DNA of 50,505 bases. Source: Escherichia phage tuinn. Of the stretch, positions 1 to 50,505 are shown in pieces. The translations under genes were made by a program, and so were the position numbers. How positions within the stretch are numbered: position 1 is the stretch's first letter; the number at the start of each line of letters is the position of its first letter. Below the pieces are notes generated by a model, which made no database searches, was not told the DNA's origin, and worked only from the letters and a program-made list of their open reading frames with translations. Where the stretch lies: the sequence record MN850606.1, one strand, 5' to 3'.

Positions 1-332
1 GCGGGAAGTATGAGCCAGCCGGAATTGTCCATAAAGGTGAATTTGTCATGACGAAGGAGGCGACGCAGCGTATCGGGGTAGGAAACTTGTACCGCATGAT
101 GCGAGGCTATGCTAACGGCGGCGTTGTTGGTAGTTCCGGCTATACTGGCGGTGGCGCTGTAACTGGTGGAGCACCTCAATTTAACATCGGCGGGATTGAT
201 GTTAGCATCACTAACGGAAACGATCCGAAGGGCATCGAAACTGGTGTTAAGATGATCTTTACTGATATGATTAAACGTTCCTGTATGCAGGGCGGCGAGG
301 TTTACGAATTTGTTATGAGCAAGCGAGGTTGA
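1..332 (+). CDS. tape measure protein, C-terminal segment (continues in frame from 48174..50505 across the window end)
   Basis: Frame open from position 1; codon phase matches the ORF leaving the window at 50505; Gly-rich C-terminus typical of lambda H-like tape measure proteins. Confidence 0.8.
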   Translation, partial: GKYEPAGIVHKGEFVMTKEATQRIGVGNLYRMMRGYANGGVVGSSGYTGGGAVTGGAPQFNIGGIDVSITNGNDPKGIETGVKMIFTDMIKRSCMQGGEVYEFVMSKRG

Positions 333-2817: not shown

Positions 2818-2823
2818 AAAAAT

Positions 2824-2846
2824 ACCCGCCTTGCGCGGGTTTTTTT
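2824..2846 (+). terminator. rho-independent terminator
   Basis: Hairpin ACCCGC-CTTG-CGCGGGT plus T7; a TATAAT (2854..2859) follows. Confidence 0.6.
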
Positions 2847-10742: not shown

Positions 10743-11478
10743 AGTCTAACGTGGTTGGTTTGTTTACCAGTGCCGCTACAACCGCTTTTAGCTCGTCAAT
10801 TTCTTTTCTCATCTCATCGTTTTCCGCTTTCAGTTTCTTAACGTGGTGAATCAGTGGAACAGTGAGGCGGTCATACATAACGCCTTCCGCCACCATGCCA
10901 TTACTTGAAGCAATGGCAGGATCTTCTCCTTCTTGCAGCGGTCGCCAGTGAACGTACTCCGGCGCAATTTGTCCAACCTATTCCGCGATTAGCCCGTACC
11001 ATCCCCAATCTTTACGGTCGCTTTCACAAGTTGACCGATACCAAACAGGACGCATTTCAAGCATCAGATCCGCATATTCATCAATAACCGATTCTACGCT
11101 GCTCTTATAACGAGAAGAGGAAGTGGAGCGTAAAACTTGCGACACTCCAGCATTTGGATCAAGCCATAAGTTTGCTGATTGAGCGGTTGTGTTAATATTA
11201 AATAAATAAAATGCATCGTTACCAGTTAGGGGGTAAAAACTCCCACTATACCTTCCGCTATCCAACTCGGATGATAGATCAGTTTGTTTTAGATACGGTT
11301 TCAACTTATTGTCAACATCAGCAGTTGATGCTTTTCCTGCAACATCCTGTTTTAGTGTCGAAACGTCATTTTTCAGCTTCGTTATATCACCAGGAATAGT
11401 AGCAACATCCTGTTTTAGTGTTGAAACGTCATTTTTCAGCTTCGTTATATCACTAGGTATAACAGTGACTGTAGCCAT
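10741..11478 (-). CDS. tail fibre protein with C-terminal intramolecular chaperone (peptidase S74-like) domain, interrupted by in-frame TAG at 10978..10980
   Basis: Called ORF ends ..DWGWYGLIAE*; same frame continues VGQIAPEYV..LKAENDEMRKEIDELKAVVAALV to TAA at 10741, matching the S74 chaperone consensus. Confidence 0.6.
11344..11469 (-). repeat. tandem 63-bp repeat (2 units) inside tail fibre gene
   Basis: Units start 11344 and 11407; encode duplicated peptide I-P-x-DITKLKNDVSTLKQDVA. Confidence 0.7.
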
Positions 11479-30838: not shown

Positions 30839-31060
30839 ATGTACATTAAAAAGAAGATGAAATGCGTTTCCGTTAACTATGCTTGCTCTGGCATGTTCAA
30901 GCCTGGCGAAATCTATACGGCGCAAAAACTGAAAACATCAACCGGATCTTTTTACGTGAGCAATAGTAAGGGGCATCGCATGTTCCTGAACGGCGGCGAA
31001 GGCACTAAGGTTATGGCACACGCTATGGTAATGGCTGAATTTGAGGAAGTGAAACAATGA
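30839..31060 (+). CDS. hypothetical protein, paralog A of tandem pair
   Basis: AAGGAG RBS; shares PGxxY..FLNGxxGT..AEFEEVK pattern with next gene. Confidence 0.45.
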   Translation: MYIKKKMKCVSVNYACSGMFKPGEIYTAQKLKTSTGSFYVSNSKGHRMFLNGGEGTKVMAHAMVMAEFEEVKQ

Positions 31061-31302
31061 TCATTGAAAACAATTTTCTTTGCGTTAAGAGCAATAGACC
31101 ATTCTTCACGCCTGGCAAGGTGTACCAGGGCAAGAAGGACACAAGAGATGGTCACTCTTATCATGTTCACTGCAACAACGGATACAAGTTTTACCTTAAC
31201 GGCGAGAATGGAACTGAGATCGTTGCGTTTGAAAACGTAGTTGCCGAGTTTGAGCAGATTACAGACGCGGAATTTGAGGAAGTGAAAGATGAAAACAAAT
31301 AA
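31057..31302 (+). CDS. hypothetical protein, paralog B of tandem pair
   Basis: Overlapping start; paralogous to 30839..31060. Confidence 0.45.
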   Translation: MIIENNFLCVKSNRPFFTPGKVYQGKKDTRDGHSYHVHCNNGYKFYLNGENGTEIVAFENVVAEFEQITDAEFEEVKDENK

Positions 31303-31486
31303 GCGCGTCAAGCACAGGTTTACTGATAACCACGGCGACGCGATTGATGTATACAAGTTTGGCGATCGAGTTTTTATTGATGGCACGTTTGAAGGTGGGC
31401 GTAGGCCGGATTTTAGGTCGATACTTACCGTTGACCAAGTGCGCAAGCTGGCAGATAAGTTAAATGATCTGGCAGATGAAATATAA
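31289..31486 (+). CDS. hypothetical protein
   Basis: 65-aa ORF. Confidence 0.35.
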   Translation: MKTNKRVKHRFTDNHGDAIDVYKFGDRVFIDGTFEGGRRPDFRSILTVDQVRKLADKLNDLADEI

Positions 31487-31521
31487 TACAAGCAAATCCA
31501 TTTTAATTGATAGGTTTTATA

Positions 31522-32065
31522 ATGAAAAAAATACACTTTCGAACTATGGGGCAAGAAGTACGAATTAATCACCAGCAAGCGGATTGTTATCGTTGACCTA
31601 GACGGCACACTATCTGACGGATCGCATCGTTTGCATTTGCTGCCAACTGAAAACTTGCACCTTACGGAGTTGTGGAGCGAATTTAACAGGGCCGCCGCCG
31701 GAGATTCACCGATTAAAAGCACGATCGCGGTTATTAACGGTTTGTGGGTGTCGGGATTTGCCATCGTCATCTTGACCGGACGCAGCGACGAAGTGCGCTA
31801 TGAAACATGCAAATGGTTGAATGAGAACGGCGTGAAGTTTGACGAAATCATCATGCGCCGCCAGGAGGACAACCGAAAGGATACGGTTATTAAAGAAGAA
31901 GCCTTGCGCGCTATTGGCCTGGACAATATTGTTTGCGCCTTTGACGATTCTCCGAACGTTGTTAAGCACTTCCGCAGCCTGGGGATCACAACCTATCAGG
32001 TCACGGAATATGACAAGCCGCACGCTCACCTGCAATCTCACGGCGTGGAGGAGTTGCAGAAATGA
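31522..32065 (+). CDS. HAD-superfamily phosphatase (polynucleotide 3'-phosphatase-like); ATG at 31522 is out of frame because of an A7 tract
   Basis: HAD motifs VIVDLDGTLSDG, ILTGRSD, FDDSPN in frame entered at 31526; removing one A from 31525..31531 gives ATG-initiated MKKYTFELWGKKYEL.. Confidence 0.55.
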
Positions 32066-32271
32066 TCCTGAATGTAGCATATGCTAACCCTCGCGGCTGC
32101 AATATATACGGCTTTAAGGTTGGCGCGATGGTCAACGCCAGGATAAACGAAAAAGGCGTATTAGTTGTCAAGTCTCCTAAAACTGGCGTGGATATGCGCA
32201 TCAAGGAGAACGGCGGAAGATTGTTTATCAGGTCAATGTCTGGTCAAACGCTCGCAACGTTCACCAAATAG
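32062..32271 (+). CDS. hypothetical protein
   Basis: 69-aa ORF, ATGA overlap with upstream gene. Confidence 0.35.
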   Translation: MILNVAYANPRGCNIYGFKVGAMVNARINEKGVLVVKSPKTGVDMRIKENGGRLFIRSMSGQTLATFTK

Positions 32272-32848: not shown

Positions 32849-32998
32849 ATGCGTAACTTTGAAAAAATCATTACCAAAAAGAAGCGTCGCGGGTACGATG
32901 AGCATGTGGAGCTTGTGAAAAAGCAACGCAAGAAGCGCAACGAAGACAAGAAGCGCGGGAAAAAATTTAATGCGATTTTTCGCTATGGAGATCATTAA
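32849..32998 (+). CDS. 49-aa highly basic small protein
   Basis: AAAGGGGGAG RBS; Lys/Arg-rich; stop abuts next gene; below track cut-off. Confidence 0.3.
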   Translation: MRNFEKIITKKKRRGYDEHVELVKKQRKKRNEDKKRGKKFNAIFRYGDH

Positions 32999-33000
32999 TC

Positions 33001-33591
33001 ATGAAACGAGACATTATCATCCTTAATGGGCCGCCAGGTTGCGGGAAGGACACTATTGCAGCTTACCTAACGGGCCATCGTTACCCAGCGGTTAAGGCGT
33101 CATTCAAACAGCCGATGTTCGATATTGCGTTTTCCATGCTTGGCCCGACTCGATATGATGAGTTTATTGACCTGTACAACGACCGAGAGCAAAAAGAAAA
33201 GCCTCAAGTTATCTTAGGCGGCAAGTCACCTCGACAATTCATGATCTGGATTAGCGAGGATGTAATGAAGCCAGTCTTTGGGGAGCAGTATTTCGGGCGT
33301 CGAATGGTTGAAGAGATTAACGAGATGTACCGAGATTTGGCGGTTGTGATCAGTGATGGCGGATTCCCCGAAGAAGTCAAGCCGCTTGTTAAGGCAGGGA
33401 ATGAGGTGCATATTTGCCGATTGCATCGCGACGGCTTCACGTTTGCTGGCGATTCGAGAGACTACATTGACCTGAGCGGTTATCACTATCGAATCCATCA
33501 CTATGACTTCCACTTGCAGGACGGCAAGCCGGAACTGGCTGTAAACGAGATCGTCAATGCTGTCAAATGGAAGCACACAAAGATTAAATAG
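33001..33591 (+). CDS. P-loop kinase (dNMP kinase-like or polynucleotide kinase-like)
   Basis: Walker A LNGPPGCGKDT. Confidence 0.5.
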   Translation: MKRDIIILNGPPGCGKDTIAAYLTGHRYPAVKASFKQPMFDIAFSMLGPTRYDEFIDLYNDREQKEKPQVILGGKSPRQFMIWISEDVMKPVFGEQYFGRRMVEEINEMYRDLAVVISDGGFPEEVKPLVKAGNEVHICRLHRDGFTFAGDSRDYIDLSGYHYRIHHYDFHLQDGKPELAVNEIVNAVKWKHTKIK

Positions 33592-33606
33592 CACGAATTG
33601 CTAAAC
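33586..33606 (+). promoter_or_regulatory. conserved motif copy (variant)
   Basis: AAATAGCACGAATTGCTAAAC; TATAAT at 33626..33631. Confidence 0.55.
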
Positions 33607-33661
33607 GCGGGGCGCAATGCCTCGCTATAATGCAAACACCAATCAACGAGAGGAAACAATC

Positions 33662-34180
33662 ATGGTGGAGTTAAACGACATTCGCGTTGGAACAAAATTT
33701 CGCGTAACCTGGGCAGATAAATATTGTGGCGTTAGCAAGGGCCAGGTTGTTGCGGTGGATAGTATTTATCGTGGTGTTAGTGGTGACTTTTGCCGTCCGC
33801 GCATCAATAATGGCTATATCATTACTCGCCGTATTGGCTTTGATAATTATTGCGTAGTGGCGACTCAAGGAGTTTTGATTGAGCTTAAGAGAATCAGCGA
33901 TCATCTCGGTCGTCATGTTAAGGCAATGAAAACACCATTTCAGAGAGCGAGATACGATGCGCGACGTATGCGCCGACTTGCGCGAAATGCGATCAAGTTC
34001 AAAAAGCCTGGCGATGATTTTTACGGCATGTATAAGGGATTGCGCGCAATGCTGGGAAATAACAATAACGCAACGAATCCTAAGCCACCTTTTGATTTTC
34101 ATTCCGCAATGATTGCGGTATTATCAATGCTACTTTTTCTTTATAGCATGAGGGCGCTACTATGGTTTTTAACGCATTGA
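33662..34180 (+). CDS. hypothetical protein with C-terminal TM segment
   Basis: ORF from ATG 33662; hydrophobic C-terminus. Confidence 0.4.
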   Translation: MVELNDIRVGTKFRVTWADKYCGVSKGQVVAVDSIYRGVSGDFCRPRINNGYIITRRIGFDNYCVVATQGVLIELKRISDHLGRHVKAMKTPFQRARYDARRMRRLARNAIKFKKPGDDFYGMYKGLRAMLGNNNNATNPKPPFDFHSAMIAVLSMLLFLYSMRALLWFLTH

Positions 34181-36186: not shown

Positions 36187-36318
36187 GGCGTCGTTTACAT
36201 AAGAGCGGCTTTGTCCGAACGCGTGACGCGATAGTCACACAACAACGGCGATATGCAGGAGGTTTTTGCAATGCAAAATAATCCGTAAGACGTATCGCCT
36301 TTTTAATGGAGATCCAAA

Positions 36319-42342: not shown

Positions 42343-42852
42343 ATGGCTAAAATTGGAGCAAGTTATTTTGACACTATGGCGCGTGCGCTTCCTGGTCAGG
42401 TATCCGATACTTCGGCATATAACATCGACGGCGCTTGTGTTCTTGACAAGGAAGACGGCATCCCAATCCTGGTTGGCGTGGCTGTTAAGCTAAAAGGCGT
42501 TGACTCAATGGGTAATAAGCTGATCGACGCTATTTCTGGTAGTGGTGATGTTCCTTATGGCGTTGGCATCCGTTCGCACTTTCAAACTACGGCTGATAAT
42601 GGACGAATGGTTTATGAGGCTGGCGGCGGAATCAACGTTATGACAGAGGGCCGCGTTTGGATGGTTGGCGATGATACCGACAAGAGCAAAAAACCATCGT
42701 ATCGTGAGCCTGTAAAAATTGATGAAAACACTGGCAAGGTGAAAAGTGCTGGCACTATCAATACCAACTGGATTTACACGGGAGATAAAACCACATTTGG
42801 AACTGGCGATGATGTGTTGACTTTGTTTGAAGTTCAGGTCTTCCCAAGCTAA
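42343..42852 (+). CDS. head structural / decoration protein
   Basis: AAGGAG RBS, own downstream terminator. Confidence 0.45.
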   Translation: MAKIGASYFDTMARALPGQVSDTSAYNIDGACVLDKEDGIPILVGVAVKLKGVDSMGNKLIDAISGSGDVPYGVGIRSHFQTTADNGRMVYEAGGGINVMTEGRVWMVGDDTDKSKKPSYREPVKIDENTGKVKSAGTINTNWIYTGDKTTFGTGDDVLTLFEVQVFPS

Positions 42853-42902: not shown

Positions 42903-43685
42903 ATGGCTAAAGATTATTCATCTGTTATGGGTCTTTCTTGCCCTGGTTGTTTGGTTGATTCTACTCGCTACAATATTGATGGAACTGGCGTTTGCGGATC
43001 TGAGTCGATAATTGCTGGCAAAGTTGTTTTCTTCAAAGAGAGAGTGGAAGGTTATAACATATTTGTTGATCATAAAGAGTATGATGCTGTGGTTGCTGGT
43101 GTTGCTATAAGGAGCAATATCACGACAACGGTTAACGAGGAAGACGGATACTCTGACTATAAGGAAGGAGATTCTATCAATATTTTAACAAGAGGGGTTG
43201 TATGGTGCTTAACTCAAACGATTGAGTCTGCGCCTGAACATGGCGATCTTGTTTATGTTAACAATGATGGTTTTGTAGCAAAAAGTGATGGCGATGAAAT
43301 CGTCGATGGCTGGATTTTTACTGGTGACTTCTACAAGTTTGATGAAACAATGAACATAGTCGGAGTCAGAATAACGCCGCTTCATCATAGAAAATACCTT
43401 CTTACTGGTGCGATCATTGAGGCCGAAAATGGCTACATAGAGGGAACAGAGACGATTAATAACGTTCAATTAAAGGTAACGGTTGTTCCTACTTGGGCTG
43501 ATGACAAAACGGGTCAGTGGACAATTACAAACGAGCAAGATCCAAAGGTTGCCAGCGTTAGCCGTACAGGTCTTGTTGTTCCTACTGGTGTAGGAGGCAG
43601 AGTTAACGTCAACTGGACTGCTAATGATGGTTCTGGAGTTGCTGACCAGTTTGATATTGTATTTAAGAAAACCGCTGGCGCATAA
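42903..43685 (+). CDS. head structural protein with C-terminal Ig-like domain
   Basis: N-terminal half related to 42343..42852 product; beta-rich C-terminus. Confidence 0.45.
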   Translation: MAKDYSSVMGLSCPGCLVDSTRYNIDGTGVCGSESIIAGKVVFFKERVEGYNIFVDHKEYDAVVAGVAIRSNITTTVNEEDGYSDYKEGDSINILTRGVVWCLTQTIESAPEHGDLVYVNNDGFVAKSDGDEIVDGWIFTGDFYKFDETMNIVGVRITPLHHRKYLLTGAIIEAENGYIEGTETINNVQLKVTVVPTWADDKTGQWTITNEQDPKVASVSRTGLVVPTGVGGRVNVNWTANDGSGVADQFDIVFKKTAGA

Positions 43686-48173: not shown

Positions 48174-50505
48174 ATGGCTGAAAAATACGCTGGCCTAACG
48201 CTAGGCGTTGACGTGTCGCAGGTCAACAATGCTGTTAAATCATTGCAGCAATTCAAGAAGGCAAACGACGACGCAAAAAAAAGCGTTAATGAATTTGTTG
48301 ATTCTGAGGTTGTGGCCCGACAGCAAGCAAAACAGCTTGCCGAAGAACTGGCGCGCCAGAAAGCAGAATTTAAGAAAATCCAGGAGTCAATTGATCCCAC
48401 TGCATCAAAGATGGATAAGCTGCGAAAGGCAGCGACACAGCTTGATGCGCTATGGAAAAAGGGCGTTGTTCCTGATCAGACTTTTTTTGAGCTTGGGGCA
48501 ATTCTTGAGACGCAGCAAAACAAGCTGATCGCAACCAAAAAAGCGATGACAGAGGAAGGCCGCGCGGCGCTTGAGGAATCAAAGAACAAGGCGCGTGCAG
48601 CGGAAGAGGCTAAAAAATTCGTCCAGGCTTTGCGTGAGCAGGAAGAAGCAGCAGGAAAAAGCAAGTCTGAATTGCTGGAAATGAAAGCGGCACAGCTTGG
48701 AGTTAGCCAGGAGGCAGCACCTTACATCGCAAGGCTGAAAGAGCAGGAAAAGCAGATCCAGAAACTTGGGATTTCTACAGGCCAATACAAACAAGCAATG
48801 GCGCAATTGCCAATGCAGATCACAGACGTGGTGACTTCACTTGCTTCTGGTATGCCAGTTTGGTTGGTCGCAGTCCAGCAGGGTGGACAGATCAAGGATT
48901 CTTTTGGTGGTGCATCCAATGCTTTAAAAGCGTTGCTATCTTTCCTGAATCCGGTAAACGTGGCGTTTGGCTTGCTTTCCGGCACGCTGGCAATTGCTGC
49001 ATATAATGCCTACAAAGCACAGACAGAGCTTGAGGCAATTAAAAAAACCGTTCAGGAAACAACTGGCTTGAGTGGTGAGTTTGCCGAAAAGATTGCTATA
49101 GGAATCCAGGAGCTTTCCGACAAGACAGGCGAAAGCGCCGAAGATCTGGCAAAGGCTTACATAACAACGAAAGACGGCGCGAGCGAGGCGATTAAAAAAC
49201 TGGTTGACGTTGGAATGACTTATGATGACGCAAAAAAGAAAGTCAACGAGTACAAGGGCGCGTCTAGCTTTGTCAGCTTGAATAACGAAATTGCAAACCA
49301 CAAAAACAAAGTCCTTGAGTTGGGCGAGTCGTGGTATGAAGTTTTGAAAGCTAAGCGTGATTACGCTTCCCCGTCCGGCGGCCTGTTAGGTAAAGAGCTT
49401 GGCTATGTTAATCCTATGCTTAAGTTTGCACTTAACACTTATGAAGACATTGGAAAGGTCGTAAAAGATGCGAATAAGGACATGGCGGAACGAGCGGAGC
49501 GAATCGACAAAGAAAACCTGGCCTTAAACAGAGTGCGCGCAGCACAGGAGGCTTTAAACAAAGCCATTGAGGATCAGAAAAATGTGGCGCGTTCGGCTGA
49601 TGAAGAACTGAAAAAGCGCGCGGCTGAAAACGTGGAGTTTAGGCGCAAAGAGCTTGAGGAAATCAAGAAGCAGGAGCAGAAAAAGAAAGAGGCTAAAGGG
49701 GGAATAGTTCGCGGCCCTACTGAGCAGCTTGATAAAGAGTTGTACGTTTTAAAGGCGCAACTGGAAACTCTTAAAGAGCATCGCACTGTTAACGATGTTA
49801 TTTCTCGCCAGCGTAAATCTTTATGGAGCATCGAAAAGCAGATCGAGATCCTGGAGAATGCGCAGAGCAAGCGTAAATTGACCGGAGCGGAACAGGCGCT
49901 ACTAAACGAGCAAAAGGCCGTTCTTGAAATGGCAAGACAAAAAGCTGAGCTAGGGGATCAGATTGTTTTGCAGGAGCGCAAAAACAAGCTGGAGCAAGAT
50001 AGTCTTAAGTTTATCCGTGAAACTGAGGCTGCTATTGATGCGATTGGCCTTAAGCAACTTGGATACACTGAAAAGCAGATCGAGCGTGAGCTAGAGTTAC
50101 GCAAGCTGCGCACCGACTACGAGGCGCAAGGCGGAAGCGTTAGCGACGAAGTTTTTCAGCAAATGGAGACGAAACTTAAGCTGTATTACCAGGCACAAGA
50201 CGAGGCGCAAGGCAACTGGTTAGCCGGAGCAAAGAACGCATGGGAGCTATTCGCGGAAGATGCAAACAATGCCTATGGCAATGTTCAGCAGATCGCAAGC
50301 GAGGCGTTAAACGGCCTTACAAACCAATTAGCGAATTTTATCGCTACTGGCAAGGCAAACTTTAAAGACTTCTCGACGGCTATCATCAAAATGATTATCC
50401 AGATGATCACGAAAATGGTCGTCTTTAATGCGTTATCTGGCCTGATGGGTGGTCAAACCTGGACGATGGGGAGCTTGCTTAAGAATATTGGCGGATTTGC
50501 TGGCG
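48174..50505 (+). CDS. tape measure protein, N-terminal segment (runs off window end, continues at 1..332)
   Basis: GGAGG RBS; long coiled-coil ORF with no stop in window; phase matches 1..332. Confidence 0.8.
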   Translation, partial: MAEKYAGLTLGVDVSQVNNAVKSLQQFKKANDDAKKSVNEFVDSEVVARQQAKQLAEELARQKAEFKKIQESIDPTASKMDKLRKAATQLDALWKKGVVPDQTFFELGAILETQQNKLIATKKAMTEEGRAALEESKNKARAAEEAKKFVQALREQEEAAGKSKSELLEMKAAQLGVSQEAAPYIARLKEQEKQIQKLGISTGQYKQAMAQLPMQITDVVTSLASGMPVWLVAVQQGGQIKDSFGGASNALKALLSFLNPVNVAFGLLSGTLAIAAYNAYKAQTELEAIKKTVQETTGLSGEFAEKIAIGIQELSDKTGESAEDLAKAYITTKDGASEAIKKLVDVGMTYDDAKKKVNEYKGASSFVSLNNEIANHKNKVLELGESWYEVLKAKRDYASPSGGLLGKELGYVNPMLKFALNTYEDIGKVVKDANKDMAERAERIDKENLALNRVRAAQEALNKAIEDQKNVARSADEELKKRAAENVEFRRKELEEIKKQEQKKKEAKGGIVRGPTEQLDKELYVLKAQLETLKEHRTVNDVISRQRKSLWSIEKQIEILENAQSKRKLTGAEQALLNEQKAVLEMARQKAELGDQIVLQERKNKLEQDSLKFIRETEAAIDAIGLKQLGYTEKQIERELELRKLRTDYEAQGGSVSDEVFQQMETKLKLYYQAQDEAQGNWLAGAKNAWELFAEDANNAYGNVQQIASEALNGLTNQLANFIATGKANFKDFSTAIIKMIIQMITKMVVFNALSGLMGGQTWTMGSLLKNIGGFAG

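What the first reader, a model, noticed from the sequence alone, without database searches (positions are those of the whole stretch)
31522..32065. HAD phosphatase gene whose only ATG is out of frame because of an A7 tract
The ORF carries HAD motifs (DLDGT, TGRSD, FDD) but has no ATG/GTG/TTG in frame after the upstream stop at 31523..31525. The only ATG (31522) is followed by seven A (31525..31531) and reads MKKIHFRTMGQEV..stop. Deleting one A gives ATG-initiated MKKYTFELWGKKYELITSKRIVIVDLDGT.. So this is a homopolymer sequencing error, a fresh frameshift, or a slippery A-run allowing +1/-1 slippage. With the P-loop kinase at 33001..33591 it could form a split end-healing pair like T4 Pnk, which counters host anticodon nucleases, but no RNA ligase was recognised.
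Basis: partly seen in the sequence, partly recalled or inferred. Interest (0 to 1): 0.55.

Follow-up and report, generated by a model that had tools for sequence, protein, structure and literature searches.

The report
Private frameshift in phage phosphatase gene
One extra A in a run of A's at the very start of a well-known T1-like phage phosphatase gene puts its start codon out of frame in this genome only, so it is an ordinary one-off mutation or sequencing slip and not a conserved recoding device.

The parts
31511..31514 (+). Weak Shine-Dalgarno-like TAGG, 7 nt upstream of the ATG
   Evidence: Read from the sequence. The same upstream sequence is conserved in relatives that use this ATG.
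31522..31524 (+). Ancestral ATG start codon of the phosphatase gene, now out of frame
   Evidence: Relatives annotate their CDS from the homologous ATG. All 11 close loci have ATG-A6-TAC.
31525..31531 (+). A7 tract, which is A6 (Lys-Lys codons 2-3) plus one private extra A
   Evidence: Searches show an insertion of 1 relative to JLBYU01. One search shows that all 4 panel genomes differ from the window here. One search shows 0 of 21 phage records identical, with every listed hit (the top 10) at 98.5% = one gap. Searches show that all homologous IMG/VR and metagenome matches are A6.
31522..31596 (+). 24-codon out-of-frame peptide that is actually read from the ATG (MKKIHFRTMGQEVRINHQQADCYR, then stop)
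31526..32065 (+). Pnk-type HAD 3'-phosphatase reading frame (residues 2-180 plus stop), +1 relative to the ATG
   Evidence: for the translation. One search gives PF25109 HAD_PNKP at 2.6e-21. One search gives phrog_415 at 8.5e-66. One search gives profile hits to Pnkp1 4XRP (2e-14) and T4 Pnk 1LTQ (4e-7).
31595..31609 (+). HAD motif I DLDGT (D25 nucleophile, D27), aligned with T4 Pnk D165/D167
   Evidence: Invariant in alignment A1 and in 120 of 120 homologue clusters. Aligned with T4 'FDVDGT'.
31631..31633 (+). First canonical in-frame start (TTG). It lies downstream of motif I, so a product from here would lack the nucleophile.
31775..31789 (+). Motif TGRSD (T85, G86, R87), aligned with T4 Pnk SGR (R213)
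31940..31948 (+). Motif FDD (D141, D142), aligned with T4 Pnk D277/D278
31670..31672 (+). Private S50L substitution (TCG to TTG) at a site that is S or T in 119 of 120 homologue clusters
   Evidence: private SNP at 31671; position 50: S 117, T 2, R 1.
32062..32271 (+). Downstream 69-aa gene whose ATG overlaps the phosphatase stop (ATGA), so the two are probably translationally coupled
33001..33591 (+). T4 gp1-like dNMP kinase (P-loop), the conserved downstream partner of the phosphatase gene. It is not a polynucleotide kinase.

Best explanation
This is a non-programmed expansion of a mutable homopolymer, private to this lineage. The ancestral gene begins ATG-AAA-AAA-TAC (Met-Lys-Lys-Tyr). In this genome the A6 has become A7, most likely by strand slippage during phage DNA replication. 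Ribosomes starting at the only available ATG therefore read a 24-residue nonsense peptide and stop at 31594-31596. The stand-alone T4-Pnk-type 3'-phosphatase (a HAD fold with its DxDGT nucleophile) is then not made. Any residual product from rare errors would be negligible. The gene is an accessory early gene that sits upstream of a dNMP kinase and probably takes part in nucleotide salvage or 3'-end cleaning during host-DNA breakdown, so its loss would be tolerated in culture. Shown here: the indel, its uniqueness, the gene family and the absence of an alternative start. Inferred: that the extra A exists in the phage DNA rather than only in the consensus, and that the gene is dispensable.
For: A7 is private. 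Four of four complete close genomes have A6. Zero of 21 GenBank phage records match the A7 version, and every listed hit (the top 10) differs by exactly one gap. All homologous IMG/VR and metagenome matches are A6. All 120 homologue clusters start in frame 2-5 residues before FELWG. No compensating indel is present. The first canonical in-frame start lies after the nucleophile motif. Several points favour a real change over an artefact. The assembly is not generally prone to homopolymer errors, since 179 of 184 comparable runs of 5 nt or more have the same length as in relatives. The same genome carries two private nonsense substitutions, which sequencing chemistry does not typically create: 31484, which is 38 nt upstream, and 10980. 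The gene also carries private S50L at a site that is S/T in 119 of 120 clusters, and P20R, which is seen in none of 120, consistent with relaxed constraint. Homopolymer indels that are polymorphic among relatives are all intergenic, whereas the window's two private indels are both coding. The private indels have therefore not yet been filtered by selection.
Against: A single residual homopolymer miscall in the consensus would look identical, and no reads are available. The genome is not in the searchable assembly collection. The rest of the gene is intact, with every invariant catalytic residue present. Its private changes number only 3 synonymous to 2 non-synonymous, too few to show decay. 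Genome-wide, the window's private SNPs show the same synonymous/non-synonymous ratio as those of relatives (64:36 against 472:187, p = 0.13), so there is no general sign of relaxed selection or of a damaged assembly. The second private indel (G4 to G3 at 34036) is also in a homopolymer, which fits an error model as well as a slippage model.
Confidence: 0.5

Rival explanations
1. Sequencing or assembly artefact. The phage DNA has A6 like all its relatives, the consensus miscounted the homopolymer, and the gene is intact and functional.
For: The lesion is a singleton +1 in a 6-7 nt homopolymer, the classic miscall site. All relatives are A6. The ORF is otherwise perfectly preserved, with all catalytic residues. 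The only other private indel is also in a homopolymer inside a gene (G4 to G3 at 34036). The record starts inside the tape-measure gene, so the genome was never re-oriented. That points to an assembly with little curation.
Against: 179 of 184 comparable homopolymers of 5 nt or more, including longer runs, agree with relatives, so no systematic homopolymer problem is visible. The genome also has private nonsense substitutions and an S50L change at a conserved site, which are not homopolymer artefacts. This shows that real lesions, or at least non-homopolymer ones, occur in this sequence.
Confidence: 0.4
2. Leaky or regulated expression through the A-run. The A7 is real, and some full-length phosphatase is still made. 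This could happen by +1 ribosomal slippage of tRNA-Lys from AAA (31528-31530) to AAA (31529-31531) while the rare AUA codon waits in the A site, or by RNA polymerase dropping one A. Alternatively the tract could act as an on/off contingency switch in the phage population.
For: The geometry allows it. A +1 shift or an A6 transcript restores exactly the ancestral protein. AUA is a rare E. coli codon (general knowledge). Homopolymers are known contingency loci and 'pseudo-pseudogenes' exist (PMC1088944).
Against: The out-of-frame state is not conserved: none of the more than 30 homologous loci and none of the 120 clusters show it. In reporter assays E. coli RNA polymerase showed no detectable slippage on A runs shorter than 8 and no deletion-type slippage on poly(A) at all (PMC6260861). 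Selection against slippage becomes evident at about 9 nt (PMC1088944). These phages encode no RNA polymerase of their own in the annotated relatives. No Shine-Dalgarno-like stimulator lies close to the shift codon, since the only one is the RBS 14 nt upstream.
Confidence: 0.06
3. A truncated or alternatively initiated product is made, either from TTG 31631 or from a non-canonical ATT/ATC codon at 31583-31591, and it retains some function.
For: The frame stays open for 181 codons. TTG 31631 would give a 144-aa ORF. ATT 31583 would keep the DLDGT motif.
Against: A start at TTG 31631 removes the Asp nucleophile, which is invariant in 120 of 120 clusters. No Shine-Dalgarno sequence precedes either site. 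All homologues keep the N-terminal FELWG strand. No homologue among the best 120 is shorter than 174 aa.
Confidence: 0.03

Closest known systems
Orthologous 'polynucleotide kinase / kinase-phosphatase' genes of Warwickvirus and Hanrivervirus phages (e.g. JLBYU01_39 UGO55832.1, tonn_22 QHR69053.1, FritzSarasin bas04_0071 QXV79428.1)
   Same: 84-98% identical protein, same position in the early region, same upstream sequence and same ATG.
   Different: They have A6 and an intact 179-180 aa ORF, or a 236-237 aa form fused to the next small ORF. The window has A7 and the ORF has lost its start. It also carries private P20R and S50L.
C-terminal 3'-phosphatase domain of bacteriophage T4 polynucleotide kinase (PDB 1LTQ, 5UJ0) and of Capnocytophaga Pnkp1 (PDB 4XRP). 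Pfam family PF25109 HAD_PNKP.
   Same: HAD fold family. It has DxDGT (T4 D165/D167), the (S/T)GR motif (T4 R213), the R-K-D segment (T4 D254 region) and DD (T4 D277/D278). The residue roles in T4 come from my knowledge of published mutagenesis.
   Different: There is no fused 5'-kinase domain and no Walker A motif in the 180 aa. It is not associated with an RNA ligase. Its substrate is unknown.
T4 gp1 deoxynucleoside monophosphate kinase (PDB 1DEK), as the relative of the neighbouring P-loop protein 33001-33591
   Different: Only about 15% identity. It lacks the roughly 45-residue insertion of T4 gp1. The family has no Pfam model, and its activity has not been tested.
'Pseudo-pseudogenes' rescued by transcriptional slippage at A9/T9 runs (Baranov et al. 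2005, PMC1088944)
   Same: A frameshift located in a homopolymer of A, such that one missing A in the mRNA would restore the frame.
   Different: The run is only 7 nt, below the length at which E. coli RNA polymerase slips detectably. The disrupted state is not shared by any homologue.

Membership tests
PNKP-type HAD 3'-phosphatase (Pfam PF25109; T4 Pnk C-terminal domain) | Profile match above the curated threshold over the whole domain | tested here: met
   76.7 bits against a cut-off of 27.6, covering residues 20-162 on profile positions 2-140 of 143. phrog_415 at 8.5e-66.
PNKP-type HAD 3'-phosphatase (Pfam PF25109; T4 Pnk C-terminal domain) | Catalytic motif I DxDGT (Asp nucleophile and general acid) | tested here: met
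   D25-L-D27-G-T29 at 31595-31609. It is invariant in A1 and in 120 of 120 clusters, and is aligned to T4 D165/D167.
PNKP-type HAD 3'-phosphatase (Pfam PF25109; T4 Pnk C-terminal domain) | Motif II (S/T)GR, the R-K-D segment and the motif IV DD acidic pair | tested here: met
   T85-G86-R87, R118-K119-D120 and D141-D142 are conserved and aligned with T4 SGR, RKD and DD.
PNKP-type HAD 3'-phosphatase (Pfam PF25109; T4 Pnk C-terminal domain) | An expressible gene, meaning a start codon in frame with the domain | tested here: not met
   The ATG at 31522 is in the -1 register relative to the domain. There is no ATG, GTG or TTG in frame before TTG 31631.
PNKP-type HAD 3'-phosphatase (Pfam PF25109; T4 Pnk C-terminal domain) | 3'-phosphatase activity on nucleic acid ends or 3'-nucleotides | not testable with these tools
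   This needs an enzyme assay of the A6-corrected protein.
Bifunctional polynucleotide kinase-phosphatase (T4 Pnk), as the gene is commonly annotated | N-terminal P-loop 5'-kinase domain in the same polypeptide | tested here: not met
   The protein has 180 aa, only HAD-family hits and no Walker A motif. The PDB alignments cover only the phosphatase half of 1LTQ.
Split end-healing / RNA-repair set (Pnk phosphatase + Pnk kinase + RNA ligase) | The partner P-loop protein is a polynucleotide 5'-kinase | tested here: not met
   [not shown]
Split end-healing / RNA-repair set (Pnk phosphatase + Pnk kinase + RNA ligase) | An RNA ligase encoded in the genome | tested here: not met
   No ligase is annotated in four complete close relatives. 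All window ORFs of 230 aa or more correspond to other annotated functions, except a 297-aa protein with no Pfam hit. In Gajwadongvirus the adjacent ligase is an ATP-dependent DNA ligase (PF01068 plus PF14743). Caveat: I did not run every small ORF against ligase profiles.
Programmed recoding site (transcriptional slippage or ribosomal frameshift) | The two-frame arrangement and slippery tract are conserved among homologues | tested here: not met
   All homologous loci have A6 in frame. All 120 homologue clusters start in frame.
Programmed recoding site (transcriptional slippage or ribosomal frameshift) | The tract is long enough for the transcribing polymerase to slip | tested here: not met
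   The tract is A7. Published reporter data show no detectable slippage by E. coli RNA polymerase below A8 and no deletion slippage on poly(A) (PMC6260861). Genomic avoidance starts at about 9 nt (PMC1088944).
Programmed recoding site (transcriptional slippage or ribosomal frameshift) | Measured frameshift product | not testable with these tools
   This needs a reporter assay, mass spectrometry or ribosome profiling.

The most novel reading that the evidence does not exclude
The A6/A7 tract at codons 2-3 might be a genuine contingency locus. Replication slippage would switch the Pnk-type 3'-phosphatase off and on within phage populations, and low-level +1 ribosomal slippage at AAA-AUA would give residual expression. 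Under this reading the window captures an 'off' variant of a phase-variable anti-defence or salvage gene, not a dead gene or an error.
Probability: 0.04. Interest if true: 0.5.

Novelty: already known. Interest (0 to 1): 0.1.

Why it matters
It matters little for biology. For annotation, this locus should be recorded as a frameshifted copy of the conserved T1-like 'pnk' gene, either as a pseudogene or as a '/note: frameshift, verify', and not as a new recoding signal. Three by-products are modestly useful. (i) The gene that more than 100 Drexlerviridae records call 'polynucleotide kinase' is only the 3'-phosphatase half of Pnk. (ii) Its constant downstream partner is a T4 gp1-type dNMP kinase belonging to a family that has no Pfam model. 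(iii) The phosphatase and dNMP kinase genes travel together, and overlap, in two different phage families. That points to a nucleotide-salvage module and away from RNA repair.

Tried and rejected
1. I looked for a proxy for the reads with exact-protein look-ups of four window-specific proteins in the public assembly collection, including Logan. None is on record, so there is no independent assembly of this phage.

2. I scanned IMG/VR, metagenome and GTDB contigs for A6 plus 0-2 extra bases. Only A6 appears at homologous loci, and the few longer matches are unrelated sequences.

3. I tested whether the assembly is error-laden. The private-SNP spectrum and synonymous/non-synonymous ratio do not differ from four relatives. 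An apparent G-to-T excess is shared by the relatives. This test is inconclusive.

4. The T5 run at 36300 first looked like a third private indel, but it is shared with phages G3B1 and Tuinin.

6. NCBIfam gave no family above threshold for either protein.

7. L012 looked as if it shared the out-of-frame ATG, but it has an in-frame TTG directly after the upstream stop. I therefore rejected it as a parallel case (read by eye).

8. I considered a compensating indel and rejected it.

Full report
OBSERVATION. The sequence reads ...TAGGTTTTATA ATG AAAAAAA TAC ACT TTC GAA.... The ATG is at 31522-31524 and the seven A's are at 31525-31531. From the ATG the frame gives MKKIHFRTMGQEVRINHQQADCYR and stops at 31594-31596. 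The +1 frame opens after TGA 31523-31525 and runs without a stop to 32063-32065. It encodes KKYTFELWGKKYELITSKRIVIVDLDGT...TGRSD...FDD.... The mechanical ORF list shows TTG 31631 as the first ATG/GTG/TTG in that frame, and this lies beyond the DLDGT motif.

CONTEXT. The 50,505-base window is a complete, circularly permuted genome of a T1-like coliphage (Drexlerviridae, Tempevirinae, Warwickvirus). It is 98.8% identical over 24 kb to Escherichia phage JLBYU01 and similarly close to KMB46, tunzivis and swan01. Its ends fall inside the tape-measure gene. No record in the phage collection is identical to it.

COMPARISON WITH RELATIVES. In FritzSarasin, tonn, BEK7 and JLBYU01 the homologous CDS is annotated from the same ATG and is 540-543 nt long. 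Their sequence is ATG-AAAAAA-TAC, which is A6. All eleven close loci I fetched have A6. More distant T1-like loci start M-I-K-F-E-L-W-G with an in-frame ATG. A 65-nt query across the tract found 21 GenBank phage records. None is identical, and every listed hit (the top 10) is at 98.5% with one base fewer. A pattern allowing A6 plus 0-2 extra bases found only A6 at homologous loci in IMG/VR (5 loci), metagenomes (5 loci) and GTDB genomes (none homologous). Among the 120 best homologue clusters in the 5.8-billion-protein collection, every protein starts 2-5 residues before the conserved FELWG strand and none is shorter than 174 aa. Whole-genome alignment shows no compensating indel in the gene. 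The A7 is therefore a private +1 insertion.

WHAT THE GENE IS. The A6-corrected protein matches Pfam PF25109 (polynucleotide kinase PNKP phosphatase domain) at 76.7 bits, against a cut-off of 27.6, over residues 20-162. It also matches PHROG 415 at 8.5e-66. A profile of 15 homologues hits Capnocytophaga Pnkp1 (4XRP, 2e-14) and T4 Pnk (1LTQ and 5UJ0, 4e-7 and 5e-8). The alignment places D25/D27 on T4 D165/D167, T85-G86-R87 on T4 SGR, R118-K119-D120 on T4 RKD, and D141-D142 on T4 DD. These residues are invariant or nearly so in 120 clusters. The protein has no P-loop and only HAD-family matches. The common annotation 'polynucleotide kinase' is therefore a misnomer: this is the stand-alone 3'-phosphatase half.

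CONSERVED LINKAGE OF THE TWO GENES. The two genes are nevertheless linked. The phosphatase gene lies 0.7-2.1 kb upstream of the kinase gene in every T1-like locus I examined. The two genes overlap in Webervirus. They also overlap in the unrelated Autographiviridae genus Gajwadongvirus, where the order is SbcD-like exonuclease, phosphatase, kinase, ATP-dependent DNA ligase. T1 and TLS are reported to degrade host DNA and reuse the nucleotides (PMC11447400). The KanT1 study also reads these two genes as an extension of the replication and nucleotide-supply module (PMC13164509). Taken together, the more economical inference is a salvage or end-cleaning pair.

IS THE A-RUN A RECODING DEVICE? To express the phosphatase from A7, one of three things must happen: the ribosome shifts +1, the RNA polymerase drops one A, or the polymerase adds two. 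The out-of-frame arrangement is not conserved in any homologue. In a systematic reporter study, E. coli RNA polymerase gave no detectable slippage on runs shorter than T7 or A8, and no deletion-type rescue on any poly(A) run tested (PMC6260861). Genomic avoidance of A/T runs becomes evident at about 9 nt (PMC1088944). The relatives encode no RNA polymerase. A +1 slip of tRNA-Lys on AAA-A with the rare AUA codon in the A site is geometrically possible. It has no nearby Shine-Dalgarno-like stimulator and no comparative support. I give programmed or leaky expression about 0.06.

REAL MUTATION OR CONSENSUS ERROR? No reads are available, and four exact-protein look-ups show that this genome is not in the public assembly collection. 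The evidence is therefore indirect.

(a) Against a four-genome panel the window has only two private indels. One is the A7. The other is G4 to G3 at 34036, which alters the last six residues of a 133-aa protein and is absent from 56 records. A third candidate, the T5 run at 36300, is shared with two other phages.

(b) The homopolymer indels that vary among relatives are all intergenic, whereas the window's two private ones are both coding. The private ones have therefore not passed through selection.

(c) The assembly is not generally prone to homopolymer errors. Of 184 comparable runs of 5 nt or more, 179 have the same length as in relatives.

(d) The genome carries two private nonsense substitutions. 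One is GAA to TAA at 31484, which trims 8 residues from the gene just upstream. The other is GAA to TAA at codon 168 of 220 in a tail-fibre chaperone-type protein (window 10980). Neither is shared by 59 and 25 matching records respectively. These are not homopolymer artefacts.

(e) Within the phosphatase gene the window has five private SNPs. Three are synonymous. The other two are P20R, seen in none of 120 clusters, and S50L, at a site that is S/T in 119 of 120 clusters.

(f) Genome-wide, the private-SNP spectrum and synonymous fraction do not differ from those of relatives.

Points (c) to (e) lean towards a real, recent loss-of-function allele. Points (a) and (f), together with the intact remainder of the gene, keep a single miscall fully plausible. 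My estimate is about 0.5 for a real mutation and about 0.4 for an artefact.

VERDICT. A known and widely distributed accessory gene of T1-like phages carries a private one-base homopolymer expansion at codons 2-3. It is not a new system and not a conserved recoding signal. The RNA-repair speculation fails its membership tests. Interest is low (0.1). The only non-trivial reading left open is a phase-variable or leaky tract, with probability about 0.04.

Noticed in passing
window 34036-34038 (ORF 33662-34180): A second private homopolymer indel. The window has G3 where the 4-genome panel has G4; among 57 matching phage records none listed is identical across the tract, and a single >=99% record, probably a partial match, was not inspected. 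It replaces the last 6 residues of a conserved 133-aa hypothetical protein and extends the ORF by about 45 codons, so that it overlaps the start of the next gene (34162).
   Followed up: partly
window 31484-31486: A private nonsense substitution (GAA to TAA) removes the last 8 residues (EYKQIHFN) of the 73-aa protein just upstream of the phosphatase gene. None of 59 matching phage records has it.
   Followed up: partly
window 10978-10980 (minus strand; gene 11478..10825): A private nonsense substitution (GAA to TAA) at codon 168 of 220 in a tail-fibre-associated protein that one relative annotates as 'chaperone of endosialidase'. None of 25 matching records has it. It would truncate the C-terminal chaperone-like part.
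   Followed up: partly
window 31581 and 31671: The phosphatase gene has two private amino-acid changes. P20R gives an R never seen in 120 homologue clusters. S50L falls at a site that is S or T in 119 of 120.
   Followed up: yes
L034 (KMB46) 33068-33778; proteins P0001-P0015: Many close relatives encode a 236-237 aa form of the phosphatase in which the ORF is fused to the downstream ~53-aa ORF. Others have two overlapping genes (ATGA). I did not work out the cause of the fusion.
   Followed up: no
L051 2441-4552; L053 1513-2579; all T1-like loci: The gene order phosphatase then dNMP-kinase-like P-loop protein is conserved. The genes lie 0.7-2.1 kb apart in T1-like phages. They overlap by 4 nt in Webervirus and in Autographiviridae Gajwadongvirus, where they sit between an SbcD-like exonuclease and an ATP-dependent DNA ligase.
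   Followed up: partly
[not shown]
   Followed up: yes
window 30839-31057 and 31057-31299; 42343-42849 and 42903-43679: There are two pairs of adjacent paralogous genes: small early proteins ending ...AEFEE/Q, and two head-associated HtjA-like proteins. They cross-hit in tblastn.
   Followed up: no
window 2819-2824, 32050-32266, 32938-32996: The window differs from JLBYU01 in a mosaic fashion. The HNH endonuclease gene between the tail-assembly and tail-fibre genes is absent, and two small early genes downstream of the phosphatase are replaced by unrelated sequence.
   Followed up: no
window 1-329 and 48174-50505: The ends of the window fall inside the tape-measure gene, so the window is a whole, circularly permuted genome that was not re-oriented.
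   Followed up: partly
L012 (IMGVR_UViG_2974632794_000001) about 2480-2510: This relative has a different upstream junction. An out-of-frame ATG overlaps the upstream stop (ATGA), and the phosphatase frame appears to start at a TTG directly after that stop.
   Followed up: partly
window 30952-31770 (minus strand): A 272-codon antisense ORF spans several plus-strand early genes, including the start of the phosphatase gene. It is almost certainly spurious.
   Followed up: no
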